DNA of 12,974 nucleotides, from positions 1-12,974 of the IMG/VR virus record IMGVR_UViG_2648501669_000022; one strand, 5' to 3'. This DNA is from a virus. Its lineage: Duplodnaviria; Heunggongvirae; Uroviricota; Caudoviricetes. Positions 1,216 through 12,974 of the stretch are shown piece by piece. The position numbers and the translations under genes were made by a program. The notes beneath the pieces were generated by a model, which saw only the letters and a list, made by a program, of their open reading frames with translations, was not told the DNA's origin and did no database searches. How positions within the stretch are numbered: the first letter of the stretch is position 1; each line of letters begins with the position of its first letter.

Positions 1216-1343
1216 CTGGTTGAGTATACAGTAGTAGACTTTGAGCGACGAAAGAAAAGGCTGTGTCTAGGGTCGCTCCCGAAAATCCGTACACCTCGAC
1301 GGACTGGTACAGCCACTACAGTAGAGGACGCTGAGGTGTGCGT

Positions 1344-2154: not shown

Positions 2155-2197
2155 ATACCCTGAGGGTGATTTACTGTTACCCTCAGGGTATTTTTTT
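2155..2197 (+). terminator. Rho-independent terminator after the cargo gene
   Basis: Perfect 13-bp stem ATACCCTGAGGGT (2155-2167) / ACCCTCAGGGTAT (2179-2191), 11-nt loop, then a run of 7 T (2191-2197). Confidence 0.8.
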
Positions 2198-2643: not shown

Positions 2644-3444
2644 ATGAAACTGCGAAAAACGCCCGTACAGGGGCAGGGCTTCGTTCGGCCTGAAAACCAG
2701 AATCTGCAAAATTTCGGCGAAATTATCCCGATTATTTCCGGCGTTATTGGCGGGAGTGAAACCACTATTGTTAGCGCCAGAGCGTTACATAAGGCGTTAG
2801 GTGTAGGGCGCGTTTTCCGTTCGTGGATCAAGGGGCGCATTGAAGAATACGGGTTCACGGAAGGCGTGGATTATGAGGTTGTTGAATATTTGAGCCGACC
2901 CGATCCGGTGAGCGCAAAATCTCGCCAGCAAACCGCTCTTGAGTACATCATCACAGTGAACATGGCGAAAGAACTGGCGATGGTCGAACGTACCGAACAG
3001 GGCCGCGCCGTTCGCCAGTACTTTATCAAATGCGAGGAGGAGCTACACAAGGTAGCGCCAGTGCGTTCCGCAGCGTTACGCCGGGAACTGAAAGCCCGTA
3101 TCACCGTTGCCAGCTACTTTAAGCCAATGTGTGCCGCGCTGGAGGCGTACCGGGCTGAACTGGGTAAAAACACGTTCCAGCACCACTACACCACGGAAGC
3201 CAATATGCTGGCGCGTATCGTGCTGGGTGGCATGACTGCAAAACAGTGGGCGCAGGCGAACGGCATCACAGGCGAACCACGCGACCACATGAGCACGTTG
3301 CAGCTTGAGCACCTTTCTTACCTTGAGCAGAGCAATATCACGCTGATTGAGTTAGGCCAGGGCTACCACCAGCGGAAAGCTGAATTAATTCGTCTTTCGC
3401 AGCGTTGGTTAGCCCGTCGCATGGAGGAAAACAGCCATGTGTAA
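2644..3444 (+). CDS. AntA/AntB-type antirepressor-like protein (N-terminal domain), C-terminal domain unknown
   Basis: 266 aa; N-terminal segment SARALHKALGVGRVFRSWIKGRIEEYGFTEGVDYEV resembles the AntA/AntB N-terminal domain as I remember it. AGGAG 5 nt upstream of the ATG. Confidence 0.6.
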   Translation: MKLRKTPVQGQGFVRPENQNLQNFGEIIPIISGVIGGSETTIVSARALHKALGVGRVFRSWIKGRIEEYGFTEGVDYEVVEYLSRPDPVSAKSRQQTALEYIITVNMAKELAMVERTEQGRAVRQYFIKCEEELHKVAPVRSAALRRELKARITVASYFKPMCAALEAYRAELGKNTFQHHYTTEANMLARIVLGGMTAKQWAQANGITGEPRDHMSTLQLEHLSYLEQSNITLIELGQGYHQRKAELIRLSQRWLARRMEENSHV

Positions 3445-3750
3445 CGCTCTGACCGTTACAAAAAGAAAAAGCGCCCCGTTGCCGGAGCGCCTTTGTGAAC
3501 GAATAGCCTACTGCGCCATATTGCTTACTGTCTACGAGGCAGATTATAGCGTTGTGGTCGCACAGAGTGAAGGCGCAGATCACCGTTACTACAGCACACC
3601 AGAAATGCAGAATATTTTGCTGCAAAATGTCGTTGGCCACGCTGTCCGGAAAGCAAAAAATTTTGCTGGTGGCGTGACTGATACGATTTTTTCTGGTTGC
3701 TCGGTGCTGATCAACTTAACCTGGACTTATGTACAACATTGCAACTATTC

Positions 3751-3897
3751 CTACTTTAAGCTGAATGTAACTTTACCTATATCATTAGAGGTATGGTCGC
3801 GCTTGACCTCAATTTCACCATTTTGTAGCCCTGCTACAAAAAAATATAAAAGTGTCAATGTTGCTGCAATCAGTAACCATTTTCCAAAAATATACAT
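3751..3897 (-). CDS. Small membrane peptide (48 aa), not in the ORF track
   Basis: Translated by hand from the minus strand: MYIFGKWLLIAATLTLLYFFVAGLQNGEIEVKRDHTSNDIGKVTFSLK. One predicted TM helix at the N-terminus. Starts 21 nt downstream of the Arc-like stop on the same strand; AT-rich; weak SD-like AAGGG upstream. Confidence 0.35.
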   Translation of the reverse strand: MYIFGKWLLIAATLTLLYFFVAGLQNGEIEVKRDHTSNDIGKVTFSLK

Positions 3898-3918
3898 TCT
3901 TGATTTTACCCTTAATCG

Positions 3919-4092
3919 TCAACCTTTTGGCACGATGCCTCGCTGTTGTAATTCTTTGCGGAGCACTCGTTTAATCCAGGTAGCTAATGAGGTGTCGCCG
4001 TCTGCTTTGGCTGCCTCCTCAAGTTGTGCCCTAAATTCTTCTGGTAGCCGCATTTGGTATGGTGGCGATCGTTTTTCTAATGGTGTTGACAT
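3919..4092 (-). CDS. Arc/MetJ-type ribbon-helix-helix DNA-binding protein (57 aa), not in the ORF track
   Basis: Translated by hand from the minus strand: MSTPLEKRSPPYQMRLPEEFRAQLEEAAKADGDTSLATWIKRVLRKELQQRGIVPKG. Beta-strand-like PYQMRLP followed by two helices is the Arc/Mnt pattern. The start codon is embedded in a palindromic operator. Confidence 0.65.
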   Translation of the reverse strand: MSTPLEKRSPPYQMRLPEEFRAQLEEAAKADGDTSLATWIKRVLRKELQQRGIVPKG

Positions 4093-4144
4093 GGTAATTA
4101 CCCATAATTACTATAGTTACACGGTAATTACCATTGTACTTACC
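4093..4144. promoter_or_regulatory. Divergent promoter/operator region: perfect 10-bp palindrome GGTAATTACC x2 plus a degenerate third site
   Basis: GGTAATTACC at 4093-4102 (abutting the Arc-like start codon) and 4123-4132, 30 bp centre to centre; degenerate copy GTACTTACC at 4136-4144; TATAGT-like -10 for the minus strand at 4111-4116. Confidence 0.55.
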
Positions 4145-4228
4145 ATTGCAAAAAAAACAACGCCCCGGACTGCGGGAACAGTACCAGGGCGTCTAACCAC
4201 CAACGATAGCGAAAGTATCGAGGTAGCT

Positions 4229-4432
4229 ATGATAAATCATACCACACACCCGCAAGGGCGGGACTCGCACAACCTGAATAAATACATCTGGCGTTTTATC
4301 GCCCTGAGCACGGCACAACCGCGCGTAATTCACATCGAGGCCACCAGCGAACAGGAAGCACGCCAGCAATCTCCTGATGGCTGCGTGATGGTATTCGCCG
4401 CCCGTATTCGCCAGGAGGTGCACCATGCATAA
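4229..4432 (+). CDS. Hypothetical protein (67 aa), first gene of the replication operon
   Basis: This is only the 3' part of the 331-aa track ORF (3437-4432). ATG at 4229 with GAGGT 4 nt upstream; the upstream 800 nt of that ORF overlaps the Arc-like gene and the intergenic region and translates to low-complexity sequence. Stop overlaps the next start. Confidence 0.5.
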   Translation: MINHTTHPQGRDSHNLNKYIWRFIALSTAQPRVIHIEATSEQEARQQSPDGCVMVFAARIRQEVHHA

Positions 4433-4987: not shown

Positions 4988-5278
4988 ATGAAAAAGAAAA
5001 ATTCTGGCTTTACTGCCAGCGGCCCCGCTCGGCCTGAAATCAGACACGGAGATATTTACCGCGACACCAGACGTGGGGGACGAGTGGTTATTCGTCACGT
5101 TACGCCAGGCAATATCACCTACCGCCGTGAGGCTTACGAATATGACTGCGTAATGCCGCGCCGTCAGTTTGAGCGTGATTTTATTCTGGTGGAAAACAAA
5201 CAACAGGCGGTGGCAAGACGTGCAGCCACGAATATTAAAAAAATCCGGGCAATGTTGGTTGCGGGAGGTAAGAAGTGA
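4988..5278 (+). CDS. Hypothetical basic protein (96 aa)
   Basis: ORF with AGGAAAA upstream; stop overlaps the GTG start of the helicase gene. No family recognised with confidence. Confidence 0.5.
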   Translation: MKKKNSGFTASGPARPEIRHGDIYRDTRRGGRVVIRHVTPGNITYRREAYEYDCVMPRRQFERDFILVENKQQAVARRAATNIKKIRAMLVAGGKK

Positions 5279-6687
5279 AAAACGCACCGAATTTGAAATA
5301 TCAGCCGAAGGATAAATTCACTGAGGTAATCATTTTTGCCGGGACGGACGCTTACTCCCATGCTCAACACTGGATTGAAAGCGAAGGACGGAAACACGGC
5401 GATAATGTGCCACCTGTTTACCTGGGGCCAAAGCAACTGGCAGACCTGGCGAATATCCGCATTATTGACGAGAAACGCCGCTTTGCACGTGTCTATCTCG
5501 CGGGGGAGATCGAACCAATCCAGATCAATGCTATCGCTGAAAAGCTGGCGCTGGCTGGCGTACAGGAGGCGAAATTATACAAAGGTATCACCGACCGGGA
5601 GCCGGAGAACTGGCGCGACTACCTGCAACGGATCCGCGAACAGGCAGAGCGCGAAGAAATGCTTACTGACGAGCAATACAGCCAGCGAAAAACCACACTA
5701 CCAATGAGTATTGGATCTGCAGGGTACGACACACAGCTTGATTATGTCGTTAAGGGCGTGATTCCGGCTAATTCATTGTGCAGCACATACGGCGCGAGCG
5801 GTTCCTATAAATCGTTCCTCGCGTGTTCCTGGGCGTGTCATGTTGCCACGGGTCGCCACTGGGGAGGCCGCAGGGTGGCGCATGGTTCGGTGATGTATGT
5901 CGTCGGTGAAGGTGGCATTGGTGTCCCTCGTCGTATCAAAGCATGGGAAATCGTTAATGATGAACGGGTGAAAAATCTGTACCTGGTAAACCGCCCGATT
6001 TTTCCGGCGGTCCCGCTTGATGTTGATGAAATGGTCATCGCTTCCCGTCAGGTTGAACGGGAAACGGGTAAACCGGTACGCATGATTATTCTGGATACGC
6101 TGGCGCGTTGCTTTGGCGGTAATGATGAAAATGACGCGCGGGATATGGGGGCGTTTATCCGTGGATGTGACGAACTGAAACGACGCACGGGGGCCACGGT
6201 ACTGGTGGTTCACCATTCCGGCAAGGATGAAACAAAAGGGGCGCGTGGTTCCAGTGCATTTCGTGCATCTCTGGACGCTGAATACCGTATTCGCCGTGAA
6301 GGTGCGGACAGTGAAGCCCTGGTTATCTCCTGCACCAAAATGAAGGACGCGGAGGAACTGAAAGAGGCTGCATATGATTTACGCGTGGTGGAGCTTTTTA
6401 CCGACACTGACGGGGAGTTAATCACGTCGCTGGTGGTTGTGGATAAGCCGCGCCCACCTGTTGAACTGGAACGCATCGAGGAGGCCGGGAACAAGACGGA
6501 AAATCACGCTGCGCTATGGCAGTGCATCAGAACGCGAACAGCACACGGGGAGGCGTGCACTATCGCCCTTCTCCGCGATGATATGAAAAAGCTGGGGTAT
6601 GAAATGAAAAACTTCCGGCGCTGGCTGTACAAGCTGGAAAGCGACGGCGTAATCGCTATTGACGGTGATTATGTGCGCCCACTGTAA
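5275..6687 (+). CDS. RepA/DnaB-like RecA-fold replicative helicase (the family I remember as AAA_25), probable replication initiator of the island
   Basis: 470 aa; GTG start with GGGAGGT 5 nt upstream. Walker A-like GASGSYKS, Walker B-like ILDTLARCF, and VLVVHHSGK motif typical of RepA-type helicases. Its stop abuts the iteron array. Confidence 0.8.
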   Translation: MKNAPNLKYQPKDKFTEVIIFAGTDAYSHAQHWIESEGRKHGDNVPPVYLGPKQLADLANIRIIDEKRRFARVYLAGEIEPIQINAIAEKLALAGVQEAKLYKGITDREPENWRDYLQRIREQAEREEMLTDEQYSQRKTTLPMSIGSAGYDTQLDYVVKGVIPANSLCSTYGASGSYKSFLACSWACHVATGRHWGGRRVAHGSVMYVVGEGGIGVPRRIKAWEIVNDERVKNLYLVNRPIFPAVPLDVDEMVIASRQVERETGKPVRMIILDTLARCFGGNDENDARDMGAFIRGCDELKRRTGATVLVVHHSGKDETKGARGSSAFRASLDAEYRIRREGADSEALVISCTKMKDAEELKEAAYDLRVVELFTDTDGELITSLVVVDKPRPPVELERIEEAGNKTENHAALWQCIRTRTAHGEACTIALLRDDMKKLGYEMKNFRRWLYKLESDGVIAIDGDYVRPL

Positions 6688-7075
6688 AAAGTGAGGAGCA
6701 AAAGTGAGGATGGCGGGTAATTTAACAAAAAATCAACGCCACTCCTCACTTTCTCACCTGTATATAGGTCAAAAAGTGAGGAATGAAAAACATATTGTAA
6801 AACAAGACATTACAACAACAAGAAAAACAGGTGAGGAGCAGGACGGGAATAACAAAAAGTGAGGAACAAAAGTGAGGAATGGTGAGTTAATAGAAATGAG
6901 GTAATAAAAATAACAGGTAGGTTAAAAAACACACCATGCAAGATATTAACTAAAACTTAACTATTTACCTCACTTTTGCGTATATATAAGGATTAAAAAG
7001 TGAGTACTTAAAAATACATTTAAAATCATATTGTTATTAACTTCATAAATTTTCACTGTGCAGCAGGTGAGGAAT
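6688..7075. repeat. Putative origin of replication: AT-rich iteron array, core GTGAGGA
   Basis: Direct copies of GTGAGGA at 6691, 6704, 6776, 6831, 6859, 6872 and 7067; inverted copies at 6743-6749 (TCCTCAC) and 6967-6973 (ACCTCAC); variants GTGAGTT (6882) and GTGAGTA (7010). Most are preceded by an A-run; the region is strongly AT-rich. Confidence 0.7.
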
Positions 7076-7153
7076 TAAAAAATTAGGAATGTTAAAAATG
7101 AAAACAGAATGTTGTGTCAGTGCCGTTGGGCAACGTAGCAATCAGTAAAAACG

Positions 7154-7696
7154 ATGGGGCAAAGCATGACTAAGCTGACCATTAACAGAAAACCTAAAGG
7201 CATTTACGGCACGCCGCAGAAAACGACGCAGGCGGCGCAGGAGCAGGATAAAACCACGTCGGCGCATAAAGTGATGCCCGGTAACCAGAAAGCGCAGCAG
7301 AAGCCCACAGGGGCGACACCGTGGCGGCATATGACCAAGCGCCAGCGCAAAAACCGCAGGCGCGTTAACCGCCTTATCGAACTGTGGCCAGAATTATTCA
7401 GCCGGGAAGCACCGAAGCCGCTTAAGGTGGGGATATTTGACGACCTGATGCAGGATCTCGCCGTCAGGGGGCTGGCATTCGGGCCAGGGGCATTACGTGC
7501 GACGCTGGCATCTTATGCGCAGTGTCCGCGCTATTACCGCGCCTTAATGGCTGGTGGGGTACGCTACGACCTGAAAGGCCAGCCGTGCGGCGAGGTGACA
7601 CCACAGGAACAACAGGACGCAGAAACGCGGCTGGTGGCGCTGAATGAGAAGCGCAAACGTCAGCGCCGGGCAGCAAAGGAGAAAACAGGCGCATGA
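7154..7696 (+). CDS. ProQ/FinO-domain RNA-binding protein with a basic N-terminal extension
   Basis: 180 aa; LIELWPELFSREAPKPLKVGIFDDL...RYDLKGQPCGEVTPQE parallels the ProQ N-terminal/FinO signature as I remember it (PLKIGIF.DL ... R.DLDG.PCGEL). The first ~70 aa are Lys/Arg/Gln-rich. Exact start uncertain (ATG 7154 or 7166). Confidence 0.7.
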   Translation: MGQSMTKLTINRKPKGIYGTPQKTTQAAQEQDKTTSAHKVMPGNQKAQQKPTGATPWRHMTKRQRKNRRRVNRLIELWPELFSREAPKPLKVGIFDDLMQDLAVRGLAFGPGALRATLASYAQCPRYYRALMAGGVRYDLKGQPCGEVTPQEQQDAETRLVALNEKRKRQRRAAKEKTGA

Positions 7697-7980
7697 TTCA
7701 CGACAGCAAAGCGGAAGCACTGGAAGCGCGTGGTCTGTACCGGAGAGCGGCGGCGCGGTGGGCTGAGGTCATCATGCTGGCGAATGATGACAAGGCACGG
7801 GAACAGGCGGCAAAACGTCGCGCGGAATGTATCCGCAAGGCAGCACGCCCACCAGCAAGGCAGGATAATTTCGGGGAGATGCGCGAAACCATCAGCCGGG
7901 CACATGCCGGGATGGGATTACATCAGCCCAATGGTAAGGCATTCAGGAAATACCCTGGATCGAAAAATTGCAGTCAGTGA
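7693..7980 (+). CDS. PerC-family transcriptional activator-like protein
   Basis: 95 aa; N-terminus MIHDSKAEALEARGLYRRAAARWAEVIM fits the PerC/Pch pattern (E..G.WRRAA.RW) from memory. ATGA overlap with the upstream stop; followed by tandem terminators. Confidence 0.6.
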   Translation: MIHDSKAEALEARGLYRRAAARWAEVIMLANDDKAREQAAKRRAECIRKAARPPARQDNFGEMRETISRAHAGMGLHQPNGKAFRKYPGSKNCSQ

Positions 7981-7985
7981 CGGAG

Positions 7986-8009
7986 GCCGGGATTTTTCCC
8001 GGCTTTTTT
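7986..8009 (+). terminator. Rho-independent terminator (first of two)
   Basis: Stem GCCGGG (7986-7991) / CCCGGC (7998-8003), loop ATTTTT, then 6 T (8004-8009). Confidence 0.75.
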
Positions 8010-8022
8010 GTGCCAGTAAAAA

Positions 8023-8056
8023 GCCCGCAGCCAGAAGTGTTGCGGGCTTTGTTTTT
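8023..8056 (+). terminator. Rho-independent terminator (second of two)
   Basis: Stem GCCCGCA (8023-8029) / TGCGGGC (8041-8047), 11-nt loop, then TTTGTTTTT (8048-8056). Confidence 0.7.
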
Positions 8057-8181
8057 CAGGTGATTGAAGTCAATGGGAAGAACGCGATCATCATGCGTTA
8101 TTGTTTCATAAATTGCAATGATGTAGATCGTCATTTCAGTTTGTGCAATCATAATCATTGTTTTGTTCAGGAGATATGACT

Positions 8182-8355
8182 ATGAGAAAAGCCAGCGTGA
8201 AACCCGTTTTACTCGCTCGTGAGCAGATTGAAGCATTACAGCGCATCCAGGACGAGGAACGCCGCAATTCTCCGCTGGGGATTGCTCCGAGCATTCATGA
8301 GGTCGCCCGGCGTTTAATGCAGCGGGCGCTTTATCCCGTAGAACGTCCGGCCTGA
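8182..8355 (+). CDS. Small hypothetical protein (57 aa), first gene of the late-like operon
   Basis: AGGAG (8169-8173) lies 8 nt upstream of the ATG at 8182; the track's 8158 start and the 8176 ATG have no usable SD spacing. Helical, charged sequence; possible small regulator. Confidence 0.5.
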   Translation: MRKASVKPVLLAREQIEALQRIQDEERRNSPLGIAPSIHEVARRLMQRALYPVERPA

Positions 8356-8394
8356 TGGTCGTGATTTTTTGGTGAAAAAAGAGAGGTGATAAAA

Positions 8395-8973
8395 ATGCCA
8401 GCAAGCAAAGAAGATTTGCGATTAAAACTGATGGAGGTGGTTAACGCTCTGTCAGAGTCGCAGGGCAGCACTCCGCAGGAGATTATCGAAATTCTGAATG
8501 CGATCCCCGCACAGGATTTCATAAAAGAGGATAACGCTAATCAAAACATCGTCGCGTCAGTCGAAGATGAATCCTCACTGGCAGAAGCCCAGGCTAAAGC
8601 AGATTCCGCATACAGCAATATGGGCCGTCGCGCTCCAGCCCCGTTTGCTGGTGAAAAGTCGATGGATTACCGCAAGCGTGCATTAATTGGTGCACAGAAG
8701 CTGGCTAAAAAATTCAGTGATGTGGATATTCGTTCCGTTTCAGATTCTGCAACGCTGGCGGTGCTGGAAGATCAGATTTACCAGGCTGCAAAAGACAGTG
8801 TTCAGTGGGCCGTGGAAAACACGCCGGGCCATTTGGGTAAAACCGTAAGAATGGATGAAGCTGGTCGTCGTATTACTGAATATCAGGGCGATCCGAACGT
8901 CTGGCTGAACGCCTTCAAAATCCCTCCCCGTCGCCTGGTCAAAATTAACACTGCAAGCCTCGCGGGGGCATGA
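8395..8973 (+). CDS. Hypothetical protein (192 aa), acidic helical N-terminal half
   Basis: ATG at 8395 with GAGAGGTG 6 nt upstream (the track's 8386 start is a GTG inside the SD). No family recognised. Confidence 0.6.
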   Translation: MPASKEDLRLKLMEVVNALSESQGSTPQEIIEILNAIPAQDFIKEDNANQNIVASVEDESSLAEAQAKADSAYSNMGRRAPAPFAGEKSMDYRKRALIGAQKLAKKFSDVDIRSVSDSATLAVLEDQIYQAAKDSVQWAVENTPGHLGKTVRMDEAGRRITEYQGDPNVWLNAFKIPPRRLVKINTASLAGA

Positions 8974-8990
8974 AAAACGTGCTGAGTTCA

Positions 8991-9021
8991 GCCCTGCCGG
9001 ATTTGGCGGGGCTTATTGCTT
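8991..9021 (+). promoter_or_regulatory. Intergenic stem-loop with U-rich tail (weak terminator or attenuator)
   Basis: Stem GCCCTGCC (8991-8998) / GGCGGGGC (9005-9012) with one G-U wobble, loop GGATTT, then TTATTGCTT. Confidence 0.35.
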
Positions 9022-9037
9022 ATAACCGGATAACATT

Positions 9038-9709
9038 ATGCTTTTAACAGAAATTGAGGCGGCAAAGCAGATTCGGGACGGTCAGCTACCGTCGCCTTAT
9101 CAGTTTTCCAACATGTGGCTGGTTAACCTGCGTATTACAGGAACCGGTATGGCCTACCGCGCCGAAGAAAAAGAATTTGTCTGGCGTTCACCGCAAACTT
9201 ATCTCAATCCGCAGTTCCTGGAACGTTGCGCCGGAGTACCCGTCATTATCGACCATCCCGAAGGCAAAACCATTGAAGACGTTGGCGAACGGTCGCGCAT
9301 TATTGGCACCGTCATGTTGCCGTATATTCGCGGTGACGAGGTGTGGGGTGTATGCCGGATTTACGGGCAGGAAATCATCGATTACATCCAGAAAGCACGG
9401 GGGGAGGTATCCACCAGCCCGTCGGTTGTGTTTTGTGGTGCGTCCGGTGGGGCAGAAGTTCCTGATGTAATGGGCGAGGACAATTTTTTCATTGAGGGTA
9501 CGCCATTCCTTATCGATCACGTTGCGCTCGTGCCGCTTGGTGTTTGGGATAAGGGCGGGAAACCATCGGGTGTGGAGGTAACAACGCCGACAGCAGAAGA
9601 ACAGCTCGCCGGAATGGTCCGGGACGTTATTGATGCGGCCTGCAAGCCAGCCCTGGAAAAACTGGAAGAAATATCCGGGCGGCTGGCTCAACTGGAAAAA
9701 ACAGAGTGA
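9038..9709 (+). CDS. Hypothetical protein (223 aa); weak resemblance to HK97-type prohead proteases
   Basis: Size and a His (VPVIIDHPEG, residue 73) to Ser (GEVSTSP, residue 125) spacing of about 52 aa recall HK97-family prohead proteases; this is memory of motif shape only. C-terminus is coiled-coil-like. Confidence 0.55.
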   Translation: MLLTEIEAAKQIRDGQLPSPYQFSNMWLVNLRITGTGMAYRAEEKEFVWRSPQTYLNPQFLERCAGVPVIIDHPEGKTIEDVGERSRIIGTVMLPYIRGDEVWGVCRIYGQEIIDYIQKARGEVSTSPSVVFCGASGGAEVPDVMGEDNFFIEGTPFLIDHVALVPLGVWDKGGKPSGVEVTTPTAEEQLAGMVRDVIDAACKPALEKLEEISGRLAQLEKTE

Positions 9710-9716
9710 GTGAATC

Positions 9717-10334
9717 ATGAAAATTGCTAAAAACTTAAATCTGATTATCCCTGTGCGCACTGAAAAGGGAAATGGCTGGATCCATGCCACGCCGATCAGC
9801 AAAGAGGTGTTTAAAGAGCATTTCTTCATCCTGAGTAAAACCTTTTCTGCCATTTTTTCTGAAGGTCTTGGTGTTGTTGCGGGTCCGCGCGTTGCCTGCC
9901 TTATGCTGGAGAAAATCTCCCGTGACTCCGGTTTATGGGATGGGGAGAAAGGCATACGTAATACGCTCATAAACGAAATTATTCGCCTGGCAAACCTTGT
10001 TTATCCAGTGGAGGGCAAAGGCTACGACACAATCCCTCTCGATATGGCGCTGGAGCGTGAAATCGTTGATTTGGACGAAGTGGCGGGTGAACTTGTTTTT
10101 TTTACATGCGTCTCGTCGATAAATTCCCCGGAGCAGACGAAGGGGACTATGGATGCGGTGAATGGAATATGGAGCACTCAATGCTCGTCCTTGAGTCTTA
10201 CGGAATGGATCGCTTCATTGCCGACATTGAAGCCTGCCGTCAGTTCTGGCGCGACGGCGAACACGTCATCAGCGACATCCTCGACTACTCAGCCGGAGCC
10301 GGATTCAGAGACATCTGTGCAGATTCCGGTCTGA
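9717..10334 (+). CDS. Hypothetical protein; zero-frame ORF convincing only to about 10105, possible tail-assembly-chaperone-like gene
   Basis: GAGTGAG 6 nt upstream of the ATG. The first ~129 codons look protein-like; after the T8 run the zero frame becomes Ser/Thr-rich low complexity and loses the G-rich first codon position, which the -1 frame shows instead. Confidence 0.5.
   Translation: MKIAKNLNLIIPVRTEKGNGWIHATPISKEVFKEHFFILSKTFSAIFSEGLGVVAGPRVACLMLEKISRDSGLWDGEKGIRNTLINEIIRLANLVYPVEGKGYDTIPLDMALEREIVDLDEVAGELVFFTCVSSINSPEQTKGTMDAVNGIWSTQCSSLSLTEWIASLPTLKPAVSSGATANTSSATSSTTQPEPDSETSVQIPV
10097..10103 (+). other. Candidate -1 slippery heptamer T_TTT_TTT within a T8 run (10096-10103)
   Basis: Zero-frame codons are GTT TTT TTT. 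The -1 frame has a stop at 10088-10090, opens at 10091 and runs to 10399. Confidence 0.4.
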
Positions 10335-10399
10335 ATGTAAAAACAGCAGCTCAGTTTCGTGAGCTGCTCAAATTCAAGAATCCCGCAGGAGTATTGTAA
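10106..10399 (+). CDS. -1 frame ORF (97 codons from the ATG), likely translated as a frameshift extension of the upstream gene or as its own product
   Basis: Better codon-position bias than the overlapping zero frame; its stop overlaps the next start (TAATG at 10397-10401), indicating translational coupling to the 680-aa gene. Confidence 0.5.
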   Translation: MRLVDKFPGADEGDYGCGEWNMEHSMLVLESYGMDRFIADIEACRQFWRDGEHVISDILDYSAGAGFRDICADSGLNVKTAAQFRELLKFKNPAGVL

Positions 10400-12441
10400 T
10401 GTCAGGTAATCAGATGCCAGTTCTGACGCTGGACGTTAATGAAGAACACCTCAAACGGCTTGAGGCAATTTTTGAAAAGTATCGCAACGGGCTGATGATC
10501 GGCCCTGCAGGAACGCCGATGAAAATACCGGGGCAAAGTGGGCGCAGCGTGGGGGCAGGCTTACCCGTGGCGGCAAAATCTGGTCGGACAGGACCGGATG
10601 TATCCGGGAGAGTGAGGGACGAAAAAGGGCGCTTTGTCGGCAGTGGAAAAACAGCAGATTCGTTCGTAAGCAACTATAAAGGTCGCGGCGAAACGATGTT
10701 TGATAAGTATCTCAGCGGGCTGGGGAAAAATGCCCAACAGACGCTGAAAACTTACAAGCAGATCAATTCTACGCTACAGACGACCACTTCGAGATTAAAC
10801 AACCTGTTTAAAACAACCGTATCGTGGGGGACAAAACTTGCGGTTATGGGCGTTGCCGGGCCGTTTGGCTTTGGCATGATGTCTCGTAGTGTTGTAGAGA
10901 AACAGAAAAATGCAGATGAGCTGGTGGCAACGCCGGGAGAATTAAAGGCGGCAGAGAGTACCTATTCACCTTATTTTTCCGGTGTTGGCAATGTGCTCAA
11001 TACACTGGCAGCCGCGCAAAATGATCAAGAACACCCCGCCCGCGTTGGCCTGCTTCATCTGGGGATTAATCCTGATAAAAACGCGACTGAAAACCTGCCT
11101 GTATTCCTGAAAAAGGTTGCAGAGCTGGCAAAGGAATATCAGGGAAGTGGTCTTACCCAGAGTATGCTCAGGGGAAGAGGGCTTGGATGGGTAAATTTTG
11201 GTCTTACTAACCAGTTAGTCAAATATCAGGACAAAATACCTGAACTCAACAAAGAGTTTTCGTTACGTGCAGCGCAGAATGATTCGTTACTGACCTCTGC
11301 ACATACAAGTAAATATCAGAATCTTACCAGTAACCTGGAAAAAAACTGGGATCGGCTTACCAGCGGATTTCAGGGAGCAATGGCGGGGAATGAAGACGCT
11401 TTAATCAGAATGTCTGATGGTACCACGAATGCTGCCCTGAATTTCATGAATGGTGAGAACTTTAAAAGGATTCTGACTGATGTTGAAACGGGGCTGGATA
11501 AACTTGGTAAGTACGTTAATGGCCCGGATTTTAATAACGACCTGAACAATTTTGCCGAAAACGTTGCAAAGGTCACCAAGGCACTTAGCGGATTTGTTGG
11601 TTTTGCCGTTGAACATCCCTGGCTTTTTGGGGCCGCAGTGCTTGCGGGGCCATCAAGAGTTGGTGCCGTGGCAGCCACAACAACCGGAGTTGCCGCTCGT
11701 GTTGTCGGTGGAAGTCTTCTTGGGGCTACAGCCGGAACAGTAGCAGGATTGGCTATTCCTACAAATAACACACCTACCACCAGTGAGGAAATGAAAGGGC
11801 TGGAGGGGCGTTTCAACTTTGATTATTTTAACGAAGTGCAGGAGTGGCAAAAAAACAATCCGGGTAAGGTCTGGCCTGGAGGATTGCAGGGATTTTCAAA
11901 TCAAGTAAACAGATCTGCATATTTATCCAGAGGGATCAGGAATAACAATCCCGGAAATCTTAATTTCGCAGGACAAAAAGGGGCTACCCTGGAATCGGGG
12001 CCAAATGCCCGTTTTGCCAGCTTCCCGACGATGCTGGAAGGCATTGCTGCCTTAGATCGGCAGGTAATGCTATACCTGAAACGCGGCAAAAATACGATTG
12101 ATCAGATCATTGATATTTATGCCCCTTCATCTGATGGAAATAACACATCGTCCTATAAAAGCTATCTCTCTCAGTACACCGGTTTAGGTGTTAAGGAGAA
12201 AATTGATGGTTCTAATTTTGAGGTCATGAAAAAGCTAATTCAGGGCATTATTAACCATGAAAATGGTGCTGCCGCTAAAGCTGTAAGTGTTGAAGATGTG
12301 ATCCGGGCGCTGGCTATGAATCGTGGGATTGTCCCTACAGCAGGAAATAATAATCAGAACGTTAAGCTTGATATTCTTCAAAAACCAGGCTCCGACATAG
12401 TCGCTCAACTGGCCGGATTTTCGGGGCTTATGCCGAGGTAA
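10399..12441 (+). CDS. Large tape-measure-like protein (680 aa) with Gly/Ala-rich hydrophobic segments and a C-terminal NNPGN-motif domain
   Basis: AGGAG 7 nt upstream of the ATG. Central segment AVEHPWLFGAAVLAGPSRVGAVAATTTGVAARVVGGSLLGATAGTVAGLAIP; N/T/S/K-rich helical regions; C-terminal RGIRNNNPGNLNF...IYAPSSDGNN. The gene itself is well supported; the function is a guess. Confidence 0.7.
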   Translation: MSGNQMPVLTLDVNEEHLKRLEAIFEKYRNGLMIGPAGTPMKIPGQSGRSVGAGLPVAAKSGRTGPDVSGRVRDEKGRFVGSGKTADSFVSNYKGRGETMFDKYLSGLGKNAQQTLKTYKQINSTLQTTTSRLNNLFKTTVSWGTKLAVMGVAGPFGFGMMSRSVVEKQKNADELVATPGELKAAESTYSPYFSGVGNVLNTLAAAQNDQEHPARVGLLHLGINPDKNATENLPVFLKKVAELAKEYQGSGLTQSMLRGRGLGWVNFGLTNQLVKYQDKIPELNKEFSLRAAQNDSLLTSAHTSKYQNLTSNLEKNWDRLTSGFQGAMAGNEDALIRMSDGTTNAALNFMNGENFKRILTDVETGLDKLGKYVNGPDFNNDLNNFAENVAKVTKALSGFVGFAVEHPWLFGAAVLAGPSRVGAVAATTTGVAARVVGGSLLGATAGTVAGLAIPTNNTPTTSEEMKGLEGRFNFDYFNEVQEWQKNNPGKVWPGGLQGFSNQVNRSAYLSRGIRNNNPGNLNFAGQKGATLESGPNARFASFPTMLEGIAALDRQVMLYLKRGKNTIDQIIDIYAPSSDGNNTSSYKSYLSQYTGLGVKEKIDGSNFEVMKKLIQGIINHENGAAAKAVSVEDVIRALAMNRGIVPTAGNNNQNVKLDILQKPGSDIVAQLAGFSGLMPR

Positions 12442-12446
12442 TACCC

Positions 12447-12974
12447 ATGCTAATGAGTAAAGCAGAATATGCTAAACACAAAGGCGTAAGCCGCCAGACA
12501 GTTTACGACTGGATCGAGAAAGGCGAAGTGGTCATGTCCGGTAAAAAAATCGATGTGGAAGCGACAGAGCAGCGGAACAGCCCACCAGCACAGGAAAAAG
12601 ACACAGTTTCTGAAATGTGGCCAGAGAGAACGCTGGAAATGACGTGGGGCGAGTTCTGGAAAGCAGTTAAGGCCAGAGACGGTAAAATCCCTGCACCAGT
12701 AACGGACGATGACATACAGCAGCGTGTGCAGGATGCAGCCGGGGAATTAGGCTGGGAAGTGCACTTTCTTGATGATGGTGCTATCTGCCTTGAGGATGAT
12801 GAAGGGCAGCATTACTTTGAAAAATACAATTTGCGAGGTAATGCCAGGCTGGCAATTCGTATGCTGCGTTGCGAACTCTGCTATGTTGCAGGTGATTATC
12901 CCGATGAACTGGAATCATGGAGTGAAGCCGGGCTAAACGCCCTGGCTGAATGGGAAAAATCAGGCCATCAATGA
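12447..12974 (+). CDS. HTH protein (175 aa) with a Nu1-like small-terminase N-terminal signature; candidate TerS or packaging-redirection factor
   Basis: GAGGT 7 nt upstream of the ATG. N-terminus SKAEYAKHKGVSRQTVYDWIEKGEVVMSGKKIDVEA parallels lambda Nu1 (KKQLADIFGASIRTIQNWQEQGMPVLRGGGKGNEVLYDSAA) from memory. Acidic C-terminal half. Stop TGA is the last codon of the window. Confidence 0.45.
   Translation: MLMSKAEYAKHKGVSRQTVYDWIEKGEVVMSGKKIDVEATEQRNSPPAQEKDTVSEMWPERTLEMTWGEFWKAVKARDGKIPAPVTDDDIQQRVQDAAGELGWEVHFLDDGAICLEDDEGQHYFEKYNLRGNARLAIRMLRCELCYVAGDYPDELESWSEAGLNALAEWEKSGHQ

What the first reader, a model, noticed from the sequence alone, without database searches (positions are those of the whole stretch)
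7154..7980. Overlapping ProQ/FinO-domain RNA chaperone and PerC-like activator on the island
A FinO-domain protein with a long basic N-terminal tail is overlapped (ATGA) by a PerC-like gene and followed by two terminators, forming a compact regulatory cassette between the replication and late modules. FinO-family proteins act on RNA duplexes and PerC-family proteins activate host virulence regulons, so the pair could control the island's own late operon post-transcriptionally or reprogram host or helper gene expression.
Basis: partly seen in the sequence, partly recalled or inferred. Interest (0 to 1): 0.5.

Follow-up and report, generated by a model that had tools for sequence, protein, structure and literature searches.

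The report
FinO-domain plus PerC-like gene pair
The arrangement is common and both genes are already annotated this way, but nobody has tested what they do.

Summary
Observation confirmed. ORF 7166-7696 (alternative ATG at 7154) has a disordered basic N-terminal tail followed by a genuine FinO domain (Pfam 6.9e-24; the predicted fold matches FinO, RocC and NMB1681). ORF 7693-7980 is a full-length PerC-family protein, 51% identical to PchE. The genes overlap by ATGA and are followed by two strong hairpin terminators.

The window is an EcCICFT073-like phage-inducible chromosomal island (PICI). The pair lies directly after the iteron-type replication origin (6689-7073). It lies before a conserved late promoter with two operators (8104-8148).

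The cassette is modular, not an obligate pair:
- Among 53 FinO variants, 44 have an adjacent PerC gene, and 99 of 101 adjacent FinO-to-PerC junctions overlap by 4 nt.
- The prototype EcCICFT073 and Sakai Sp7 carry SSB-PerC instead.
- Some capsid-forming PICIs carry SSB-FinO without PerC.
- PerC alleles diverge about four times faster at synonymous sites than FinO.
- The late-promoter operators track a small RHH-like gene, not PerC or FinO.

PerC-like genes on E. coli PICIs are already in the literature. FinO-like genes on PICIs have only been noted in passing. The function here is inferred, not shown: probably island-intrinsic control at the early-to-late boundary. Modest novelty; interest about 0.3.

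The parts
6689..7073 (.). Replication origin (context). Ten copies of the iteron AAGTGAGGA (at most 1 mismatch, both orientations) flank an AT-rich core with 25% G+C at 6900-7099. It lies immediately 3' of the RepA-type helicase gene (5275-6687) and immediately 5' of the FinO-domain gene.
   Evidence: 13 matches in the window against 2.5 expected, 10 of them in this interval. Repeat families. G+C profile. The layout matches the PICI ori described in PMC6092414. The 52-aa ORF at 6704-6862, annotated as hypothetical in RefSeq, lies on the iterons and is probably not a gene.
7166..7696 (+). FinO-domain protein gene, 176 aa (an alternative ATG at 7154 would give 180 aa). About 60 N-terminal residues form a disordered basic tail ending in KRQRKNRRR. 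The FinO domain follows, then a long basic C-terminal helix.
   Evidence: Pfam PF04352, 6.9e-24. PDB sequence hits to ProQ 5nb9 (7.7e-12), FinO 1dvo, NMB1681 and RocC. AF2 model with pLDDT above 90 over residues 70-170. The top 26 Foldseek hits are all FinO-domain structures. RefSeq WP_000164224.1 'ProQ/FINO family protein'. Homologues start at MTK.
7676..7696 (+). Translational-coupling junction: AAGGAG Shine-Dalgarno (7676-7681) inside the end of the FinO gene, then the ATGA overlap (7693-7696).
   Evidence: Sequence. The 4-nt overlap is kept in 99 of 101 related loci.
7693..7980 (+). PerC-family protein gene, 95 aa, net charge +9. Four predicted helices, of which the first three (about 50 residues) are TPR-like.
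7982..8010 (+). Intrinsic terminator 1: GGCCGGGA/UCCCGGCC stem followed by a U6 run.
   Evidence: RNA fold. Conserved in relatives. An analogous hairpin follows PerC in EcCICFT073 and Sp7.
8020..8058 (+). Intrinsic terminator 2: a 12-bp stem followed by UUUGUUUUU. On the minus strand the same stem is followed by UUUUU, so it could terminate in both directions.
   Evidence: Scan. Folds of both strands. Absent from the 129-nt short-spacer class of relatives.
8104..8155 (+). Late promoter region (context). Two 15-bp inverted repeats TTKCA-N5-TGMAA at 8104-8118 and 8134-8148, exactly 30 bp apart, then a -10-like CATAAT at 8150-8155.
   Evidence: Alignment. The operator pair is present in 91 of 172 loci and in 0 of 172 shuffled loci, and in 85 of 88 loci with the RHH-like gene. 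Also present in EcCICFT073. Promoter scan.
8182..8355 (+). Small RHH-like protein (57 aa), first gene of the late operon (context). AGGAG ribosome-binding site at 8169-8173.
   Evidence: RefSeq CDS. Homologues in Serratia and in distant islands. No Pfam hit. The RHH assignment is inferred from the strand-helix-helix sequence pattern only.

Best explanation
**Shown**
- The window is an EcCICFT073-type phage-inducible chromosomal island.
- Gene 7166-7696 encodes a stand-alone FinO-domain RNA-binding protein. It has a disordered basic N-terminal extension and keeps the ProQ R58, Y70 and R80 equivalents.
- Gene 7693-7980 encodes a PerC/Pch-family protein.
- The two genes are co-oriented, overlap by ATGA, sit directly after the iteron origin, and are followed by tandem intrinsic terminators.
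- After the terminators comes a separately promoted late operon guarded by two operators.

**Inferred**
- The pair forms the last two cistrons of the rightward early/replication transcription unit. In the prototype island this unit is switched on by AlpA.
- The two proteins are made together by translational coupling.
- They act at the early-to-late boundary of the island's own life cycle and are not virulence cargo.
- The PerC-like protein has a TPR-like helical fold with no DNA-binding motif. It most likely works through protein-protein contact as a transcription co-factor. The separately promoted late operon is the obvious candidate target.
- The FinO-domain protein most likely binds hairpin-plus-U-tail 3' ends. 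The tandem terminators of its own transcript are the nearest such ligands. Binding would stabilise or remodel island (or helper) RNAs.
- The FinO slot is interchangeable or combinable with an SSB gene in sister islands, so the cassette is a modular set of small nucleic-acid-binding and regulator genes, not a fixed pair.
For: **Identity**
- Family and structure evidence.

**Island type**
- Integrase, int-alpA RNA (RF02996), AlpA-like HTH (the 65-aa ORF at 2369-2566, assigned from RefSeq annotation of near-identical islands and a Phage_AlpA Pfam hit on related loci), AntA, DUF4222/RgdR, helicase and iteron ori.
- Near-identical islands sit at tRNA-Pro, tRNA-Gly and abgR sites in pig ETEC and other E. 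coli.

**Conserved position**
- The same FinO-PerC-late block travels with three different replicases: RepA helicase, primase and DUF927.
- 44 of 53 distinct FinO variants have an adjacent PerC.
- 34 of 41 distinct close PerC variants are directly preceded by FinO (23) or SSB (11).
- 99 of 101 junctions overlap by 4 nt.
- The same order ([SSB]-FinO-PerC-...-RHH-late) holds at 45% FinO identity (L093, L094).

**Prototype comparison**
- EcCICFT073 has SSB-PerC, two hairpins, the same double operator, then a small gene and the late genes.
- Sakai Sp7 has SSB-PchE followed by a terminator.

**Other support**
- 33 of 55 distinct PerC downstream regions have a strict terminator within 160 nt.
- Purifying selection on both genes.
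- Island-type FinO genes occur in 1079 of 5426 complete E. coli genomes, always on the chromosome. They are essentially absent from sequenced phages.
- AlpA acts as activator of the rightward genes in the prototype (PMC6092414).
- The FinO family prefers terminator hairpins (PMC9977716).
Against: - No RNA ligand, DNA target or protein partner has been identified, and no transcript map is available.
- No consensus promoter for an antisense RNA was found, and Rfam has no family here above threshold.
- The late-promoter operators co-occur with the RHH-like gene. They are present in a Serratia island that has FinO but no PerC, so they are more likely the RHH protein's site than PerC's.
- PerC occurs with at least three unrelated late modules, and FinO occurs without PerC in capsid-forming islands.
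- Median dS is 0.81 for PerC against 0.19 for FinO in the same loci, which indicates recombination between them and argues against co-adaptation.
- The TPR-like match of a 50-residue helical model is generic.
Confidence: 0.45

Rival explanations
1. The pair is accessory (moron) cargo that reprograms the host. The PerC-like protein modulates host promoters such as LEE1 or other H-NS-silenced loci. The FinO-domain protein competes with or extends the host ProQ regulon.
For: - The founding PerC/Pch members activate LEE1.
- EcCIMP1_025, a PICI PerC-like protein, strongly represses LEE1-lux in C. rodentium (PMC11773190).
- OI-51, which carries pchE and rgdR, affects type III secretion and colonisation (PMC3378721).
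- PICI papers list perC as a virulence gene.
- The high divergence of PerC alleles could reflect adaptation to different host targets.
Against: - PMC11773190, citing Porter 2005, reports no effect of the EcCIEDL933 and EcCICFT073 homologues on LEE1 fusions.
- The cassette is found in E. coli from many sources (pig ETEC, cattle, otter, crow, baboon, human) and in Salmonella, Citrobacter and E. ruysiae. LEE content of the hosts was not checked here.
- It has a fixed position and a coupled, co-oriented arrangement inside the island's operon, not in the variable cargo slot. That slot lies after the terminators.
- No full operator-like site occurs in the Sakai LEE1 promoter.
Confidence: 0.25
2. The FinO-domain protein belongs to the replication module. 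It takes the place of, or works with, the island SSB at the origin. Alternatively it chaperones an antisense RNA that sets replicase level and copy number, as FopA and PcnR do on IncI plasmids. On this view PerC is merely the next gene.
For: - The gene starts about 90 bp after the last iteron.
- It occupies the slot held by SSB in EcCICFT073 and Sp7, or follows SSB by 36 nt.
- Plasmid FinO-family proteins control replication through antisense RNAs (PMC9977716).
Against: - About half of the FinO variants co-occur with SSB, so FinO is not a simple substitute.
- The same FinO allele travels with three unrelated replicases, which argues against a replicase-specific antisense partner.
- No minus-strand promoter or terminator pair lies opposite the replicase leader.
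- The EcCICFT073 rep-ori segment alone replicates (PMC6092414).
Confidence: 0.15
3. The pair targets the helper phage. FinO binds helper antisense or terminator RNAs, and PerC alters helper late transcription, to time or bias packaging towards the island.
For: - Satellites commonly manipulate helper gene expression, and a satellite sRNA acts on its helper in the Vibrio PLE system (bioRxiv 10.1101/2022.04.08.487710).
- Host ProQ binds phage-encoded sRNAs (PMC9977716).
- The FinO gene is found on satellites but not in sequenced phages.
Against: - When the post-ori genes of EcCICFT073 were cloned singly, only c1503 blocked lambda (PMC6739421). That island has PerC but no FinO.
- The helper of this island is unknown, and nothing in the sequence points to a helper RNA.
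Confidence: 0.1

Closest known systems
EcCICFT073 (prototype Gram-negative PICI) and Sakai Sp7/OI-51 (EcCIEDL933): the post-ori cassette hyp-SSB-PerC/PchE
   Same: - Same island architecture: int, alpA, Icd-like, DUF4222/RgdR, replicase, iteron ori, small cassette ending in a PerC-family gene, terminator(s), late operon.
- EcCICFT073 also has the two hairpins and the same TTKCA-N5-TGMAA double operator before a small first late gene.
- PerC is 51% identical to PchE.
   Different: - Here a FinO-domain gene, not SSB, precedes PerC and overlaps it.
- The late module is different: RHH-like gene, DUF2213 protease-like gene and a 680-aa transglycosylase/tape-measure-like protein, in place of capsid-type genes.
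FinO (F-like plasmids), FopA/PcnR (IncI plasmids), RocC (Legionella), NMB1681 (Neisseria): stand-alone FinO-domain RNA chaperones
   Same: - Single FinO domain with the same fold.
- A basic N-terminal extension, as in FinO.
- Encoded on a mobile element.
- Conserved equivalents of ProQ R58, Y70 and R80 (the importance of these residues is from my knowledge of the ProQ and RocC literature).
   Different: - Only about 28-30% identity.
- Below the NCBIfam FinO and ProQ cut-offs.
- No cognate antisense or small RNA is known or detectable here.
- Located on a phage satellite, after its ori, and coupled to a PerC gene.
PerC (EPEC pEAF) and PchA/B/C (EHEC prophages), activators of LEE1
   Same: Full-length match to the PerC Pfam family. 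The invariant YRRAAxRW motif is kept.
   Different: - About 45-58% identity to plasmid-borne PerC-family genes.
- Island-borne homologues tested by others do not activate LEE1, or repress it.
- The gene sits inside a satellite operon.
E. coli ProQ
   Same: The N-terminal FinO domain aligns over 105 residues.
   Different: No linker and no C-terminal Tudor-like domain. NCBIfam ProQ equivalog score is 57.5 against a cut-off of 127. It is not the chromosomal proQ gene.

Membership tests
ProQ/FinO domain family (PF04352) | Sequence match to the FinO-domain profile above the curated threshold | tested here: met
   84.4 bits against a cut-off of 27, E 6.9e-24, residues 68-172 on profile positions 5-108 of 109.
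ProQ/FinO domain family (PF04352) | FinO-domain fold | tested here: met
   AF2 model with pLDDT 87-97 over residues 61-170. Foldseek top 26 hits are all NMB1681, FinO, RocC (including the terminator complex 7rgu) or Legionella ProQ, with probability 1.00 and TM-score to target 0.6-0.84.
ProQ/FinO domain family (PF04352) | Conserved basic and aromatic residues of the RNA 3'-end pocket (ProQ R58, Y70, R80) | tested here: met
   In the alignment to ProQ 5nb9, LRATLASYAQCPRYYRALMAGGVRYD aligns with [26 protein letters not shown]. R115, Y127 and R137 are invariant or nearly so in 19 homologues. The role of these residues is from my knowledge of the literature.
ProQ/FinO domain family (PF04352) | Binds structured RNA (hairpin plus 3' tail) and promotes or stabilises RNA pairing | not testable with these tools
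   Needs EMSA or CLIP.
FinO proper / ProQ proper (NCBIfam PRK13754, PRK04950) | Score above the equivalog/subfamily cut-off; for ProQ, also a C-terminal Tudor-like domain | tested here: not met
   63.7 against 136 (FinO) and 57.5 against 127 (ProQ). The protein ends 8 residues after the FinO-domain profile match, at the end of a long C-terminal helix. It is therefore a separate clade of the domain family, not an orthologue of either.
PerC/Pch family (PF06069) | Full-length match to the PerC profile above the curated threshold | tested here: met
   111.6 bits against 22.6, residues 1-89 on profile 1-89 of 90. 51% identity to PchE. The YRRAAxRW motif is invariant.
PerC/Pch family (PF06069) | Activates the LEE1 (ler) promoter | not testable with these tools
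   The literature on island-borne homologues is negative or opposite. No operator-like site occurs in Sakai LEE1.
Gram-negative PICI (EcCICFT073 type) | int, alpA, replicase followed by an iteron/AT-rich ori, unidirectional rightward genes, about 10-15 kb, integrated at a specific att site | tested here: met
   Full islands of about 13 kb lie between tRNA-Pro and yejO, and at tRNA-Gly and abgR. The AlpA-like assignment of ORF 2369-2566 rests on RefSeq 'helix-turn-helix transcriptional regulator' in near-identical islands and on a Phage_AlpA Pfam hit on the equivalent gene of related loci; it was not scanned against Pfam here. The window itself lacks the att ends.
Gram-negative PICI (EcCICFT073 type) | Induction by, and packaging with, a helper phage | not testable with these tools
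   The helper is unknown. The last ORF (12447 onwards) has a TerS/Rpp-like N-terminal HTH.

The most novel reading that the evidence does not exclude
The FinO-domain protein is a satellite-specific RNA chaperone present in about a fifth of complete E. coli genomes. It would add a post-transcriptional layer to the PICI life cycle. For example, it could bind the tandem-terminator 3' end of the early transcript, or a still unmapped island or helper small RNA, to gate the switch to late-gene expression. The co-translated TPR-like PerC protein would act as its protein partner or as the late-promoter co-activator. This would be the first RNA-chaperone-based control circuit described in a PICI, and it would give the PerC family a native function.
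Probability: 0.2. Interest if true: 0.6.

Novelty: new member of a known kind. Interest (0 to 1): 0.3.

Why it matters
- PerC/Pch proteins have been studied for two decades only as virulence regulators, and their mechanism and native role are unknown.
- This pair gives a defined genetic setting (last cistrons of the early operon of a small, tractable satellite) in which to ask what a PerC-family protein and a stand-alone FinO-domain protein normally do.
- If the FinO protein has an island or helper RNA ligand, that would extend RNA-chaperone regulation to phage satellites.
- As it stands, the finding is a correct annotation of widespread, already named genes, with a new but modest comparative observation: a conserved, translationally coupled, modular SSB/FinO/PerC cassette.

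Tried and rejected
1. **Antisense RNA partner.** Promoter and terminator scans of the region and of the whole window found no minus-strand promoter at threshold near the cassette. The minus-strand terminator-like sites inside the FinO gene (7374-7358, 7215-7199) are weak 5-bp stems within chance expectation. Hairpin 2 could terminate leftward transcription, but no promoter supports this.
2. **Rfam.** Only sub-threshold, terminator-like noise at 7984-8053 (ncr1175, 32 bits against 60).
3. **PerC site at LEE1.** No full TTKCA-N5-TGMAA site in the 490 bp upstream of ler in Sakai.
4. **The 'ssDNA-binding protein' of Sp7 as a cryptic FinO protein.** It is a true SSB with no similarity to FinO.
5. 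**The 138-aa gene that overlaps FinO in L005-type islands as a divergent PerC.** No Pfam support. These islands keep a 49-aa PerC remnant further downstream.
6. **Defence-system membership.** No PADLOC hits for any gene of the cassette or the late module.
7. **PDB sequence search for PerC.** Nothing found.
8. **Species-representative genomes.** The scan gave only three loci, so the survey rests on IMG/VR contigs and E. coli genomes, which are strongly redundant. Counts were therefore made on distinct variants.
9. **Porter 2005 (PMC543544).** Not held. Its results are cited only through papers that quote it.
Full report
**1. What is in the sequence**

The + strand carries ORF 7154-7696 and ORF 7693-7980. 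The stop of the first and the start of the second share ATGA at 7693-7696. An AAGGAG Shine-Dalgarno sequence lies at 7676-7681.

RefSeq annotates the identical proteins as WP_000164224.1 'ProQ/FINO family protein' (starting at the window's 7166) and WP_000581049.1 'PerC family transcriptional regulator'. All 18 aligned homologues start at the MT(K/T) that corresponds to 7166. I therefore take 7166 as the start.

Two hairpins follow the PerC stop: about 7982-8007 with a U6 run, and 8020-8050 with UUUGUUUUU. Together they fold at -40.5 kcal/mol, z = -4.5 against shuffles. The second has a U-run on both strands.

**2. Family assignments**

*First protein*
- It matches Pfam ProQ/FinO at 6.9e-24.
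- It matches the PDB sequences of ProQ, FinO, NMB1681 and RocC.
- Its AlphaFold model has a disordered stretch (residues 1-51 of the 180-aa product) and a confident FinO domain.
- The 26 best Foldseek matches are all FinO-domain structures, including RocC bound to a terminator.
- The residues aligned with ProQ R58, Y70 and R80 are conserved.
- It scores far below the NCBIfam cut-offs for FinO proper and ProQ proper, and it lacks ProQ's C-terminal domain. It is a separate, stand-alone clade of the domain family.
- The tail is basic: 14 K+R against 2 D+E in the first 62 residues counted from 7166.

*Second protein*
- It matches Pfam PerC end to end at 2.2e-32.
- It is 51% identical to PchE of E. 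coli O157 Sakai.
- No solved structure is related by sequence.
- This is a generic match. Still, it shows no helix-turn-helix and fits a protein that acts through protein contacts.

**3. Context: a PICI of the EcCICFT073 type**

The window reads, left to right:
- integrase (1-1215);
- the Rfam int-alpA RNA (1260-1327, 45.5 bits against a gathering score of 35.8);
- an AlpA-like HTH protein (2369-2566);
- AntA (2644-3444);
- a DUF4222 protein of the RgdR family (4988-5278);
- a RepA-type helicase (5275-6687);
- ten AAGTGAGGA iterons around a 25% G+C core (6689-7073);
- the FinO and PerC genes, then the two terminators;
- a promoter region, a 57-aa RHH-like gene (8182-8355) and a late module;
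- an ORF with a TerS/Rpp-like HTH.

The AlpA-like assignment comes from RefSeq annotation of near-identical islands and from a Phage_AlpA Pfam hit on the equivalent gene of related loci. The late module includes a DUF2213 protease-like protein and a 680-aa transglycosylase/tape-measure-like protein.

Complete islands of about 13 kb with an identical or near-identical 6700-8400 region sit at tRNA-Pro (yejM/yejO), tRNA-Gly and abgR in pig ETEC and other E. coli. They carry three different replicases (RepA helicase, primase, DUF927) but the same FinO-PerC-late block.

**4. How conserved is the pair?**

*Starting from FinO*
- I surveyed 79 IMG/VR loci plus genome loci.
- They contain 53 distinct FinO variants. 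41 have a PerC gene immediately downstream and 3 have one immediately upstream. About half also have an SSB gene just upstream.
- Of 101 loci with FinO followed by PerC, 99 keep a 4-nt overlap.
- The order [SSB]-FinO-PerC-...-RHH-late persists at 45% FinO identity. It comes with a primase/DUF927 replicase and its own iterons upstream (L093, L094).

*Starting from PerC*
- There are 41 distinct close variants. 23 are preceded by FinO, 11 directly by SSB (3-nt gap) and 7 by neither.

*The prototypes carry the SSB form*
- EcCICFT073 has hyp-SSB-PerC.
- Sakai Sp7/OI-51 has hyp-SSB-PchE.

*Other arrangements*
- Some capsid-forming islands have SSB-FinO followed by an 82-aa gene and capsid genes, with no PerC (L051, L052).
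- A Serratia oryzae island has FinO directly followed by the RHH-like gene (L015).

*Selection and divergence*
- Both genes are under purifying selection (median dN/dS 0.215 and 0.306).
- In the same loci the median dS is 0.19 for FinO and 0.81 for PerC.
- PerC alleles are therefore exchanged independently of FinO.

*Distribution*
- Island-type FinO genes occur in 1079 of 5426 complete E. coli genomes (328 at 80% coverage or more). All are chromosomal and none are on plasmids.
- Sequenced phages have only seven remote matches.

*Conclusion*
The pair is a frequent, tightly coupled arrangement within a modular post-ori cassette drawn from {SSB, FinO, PerC}. It is not an obligate two-gene system.

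**5. What lies downstream**

PerC is usually the end of a transcription unit. 33 of 55 distinct downstream regions have a strict intrinsic terminator within 160 nt. EcCICFT073 has the same two-hairpin arrangement.

Between the terminators and the late operon the spacing falls into classes of 129, about 220, 700-800 and about 1960 nt. The long classes hold inserted cargo, for example a 380-aa lipoprotein and a 107-aa membrane protein in L013.

The late promoter region holds two 15-bp inverted repeats, TTKCA-N5-TGMAA, exactly 30 bp apart (window 8104-8118 and 8134-8148). A -10-like hexamer follows them. The operator pair is present in 91 of 172 fetched loci and in none of 172 shuffled loci.
- It accompanies the RHH-like gene in 85 of 88 loci.
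- It is also present in EcCICFT073-type loci, whose first late gene is a different small protein.
- It is present in the Serratia island that lacks PerC.

The operators are therefore most simply the site of the small RHH-like protein. They give no specific support to PerC as the late activator.

**6. Literature**

- PerC-like genes on E. coli PICIs are known. The 2018 PICI paper mentions 'allelic variants of PerC' (PMC6092414).
- pchE lies on OI-51 next to an 'ssDNA-binding' gene (PMC3378721).
- The EcCIMP1 paper reports that its PerC-like gene represses LEE1. Citing Porter 2005, it reports that the EcCIEDL933 and EcCICFT073 homologues had no effect on LEE1 fusions (PMC11773190).
- RgdR, the DUF4222 protein, is the other island regulator that cross-talks with LEE.
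- A FinO/ProQ-like gene on a PICI is mentioned only as accessory annotation in a 2026 Enterobacter survey (PMC13612085). One is mentioned on Vibrio satellite-plasmids (PMC13230959).
- Full-text searches found no study of its function.
- When the post-ori genes of EcCICFT073 were cloned singly, only c1503 inhibited lambda (PMC6739421). This argues against PerC or SSB as interference genes.

**7. Mechanism**

*Shown:* identity of the two proteins, translational coupling, position after the ori, the tandem terminators, a separate operator-guarded late promoter, and conservation.

*Inferred:* the pair closes the AlpA-driven early operon and acts at the early-to-late boundary. PerC acts as a protein-contact co-regulator. 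FinO binds hairpin-plus-U-tail RNA 3' ends, with its own operon's terminators as the nearest candidates.

*Rivals:* host reprogramming (moron), a replication or copy-number role in the SSB slot, and helper manipulation. They are weighed in the corresponding section of this report. None can be excluded without transcript maps, CLIP data and deletion mutants.

**8. Verdict**

The genes are already annotated as such and are widespread. What is new is the comparative picture of a modular SSB/FinO/PerC cassette, and the point that the PerC family's native setting is the end of a satellite's early operon. Novelty and interest are modest.

Noticed in passing
window 1260-1327 (+): Match to the Rfam int-alpA RNA (RF02996), 45.5 bits against a gathering score of 35.8, between the integrase and the next gene. 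It is a structured RNA of unknown function. It is also present in related islands L002 and L013, but not in the other FinO-bearing loci scanned (L003, L014, L015, L051, L093, L094) nor in Sp7 (L004). It is a conceivable ligand for the island's FinO protein.
   Followed up: partly
window 6689-7073: Ten AAGTGAGGA iterons in both orientations around a 25% G+C core, typical of a PICI replication origin. The 52-aa 'hypothetical protein' that RefSeq annotates at 6710-6862 lies on the iterons and is probably spurious.
   Followed up: yes
window 8104-8155: Two inverted repeats TTKCA-N5-TGMAA exactly 30 bp apart, followed by a -10-like CATAAT. The pair is conserved from E. coli to Serratia and in EcCICFT073, and is found in 91 of 172 loci against 0 of 172 shuffled loci. 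It is probably the operator pair of the late promoter. A third copy lies inside the next gene at 8738-8752.
   Followed up: yes
window 8182-8355 (+): A 57-aa protein with a strand-helix-helix (RHH-like) sequence pattern and no Pfam family. It is the first gene of the late operon, is conserved in distant islands, and always occurs with the operator pair. It is likely an autoregulator.
   Followed up: partly
window 8386-12441 and 12447-12974 (+): The late module is unlike that of EcCICFT073. It holds a 195-aa and a 223-aa protein that together match one 545-aa PHROG (DUF2213, prohead-protease-like), a 205-aa protein, and a 680-aa protein with tape-measure/lytic-transglycosylase similarity. Distant relatives have proteins of about 1000 aa here: L093 scores above the Pfam TMP_3 cut-off, while L094 has only a sub-threshold TMP_2 match. 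An ORF with a TerS/Rpp-like HTH follows. A satellite that encodes a tape-measure- or ejection-like protein is unusual.
   Followed up: partly
window 4988-5278 (+): A DUF4222 protein overlapping the start of the replicase gene. It belongs to the RgdR family (ECs1581 of OI-51), a regulator reported to activate LEE1 and repress motility.
   Followed up: partly
window 3445-4230: About 790 nt with no credible gene (the 331-aa ORF 3437-4432 is not annotated in any relative). The region contains the best sigma-70-like promoter of the window (4086-4114, +), a minus-strand YlcI/YnfO-like ORF (3919-4092) and minus-strand hairpins at 4161-4180. It may be the island's divergent control region. Relatives L014 and L094 carry isrK and C4 antisense RNAs upstream of their replication modules, but none is detectable here.
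   Followed up: no
L013 7962-9494 and the equivalent place in about a third of related loci: A variable cargo slot lies between the PerC terminators and the late promoter (spacing classes of 129, 220, 700-800 and 1960 nt). In L013 it holds a 380-aa lipoprotein and a 107-aa membrane protein with no Pfam or PADLOC match.
   Followed up: partly
L030, L031, L076, L153-L155: The PerC gene is split into two overlapping ORFs (81 and 83 aa), apparently by a frameshift, while the FinO gene stays intact.
   Followed up: no
window 2155-2191 (+): A very strong 16-bp hairpin with a T7 run lies between the 267-aa ORF (1338-2141) and the alpA-like gene. It separates the int-side genes from the rightward operon.
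   Followed up: no
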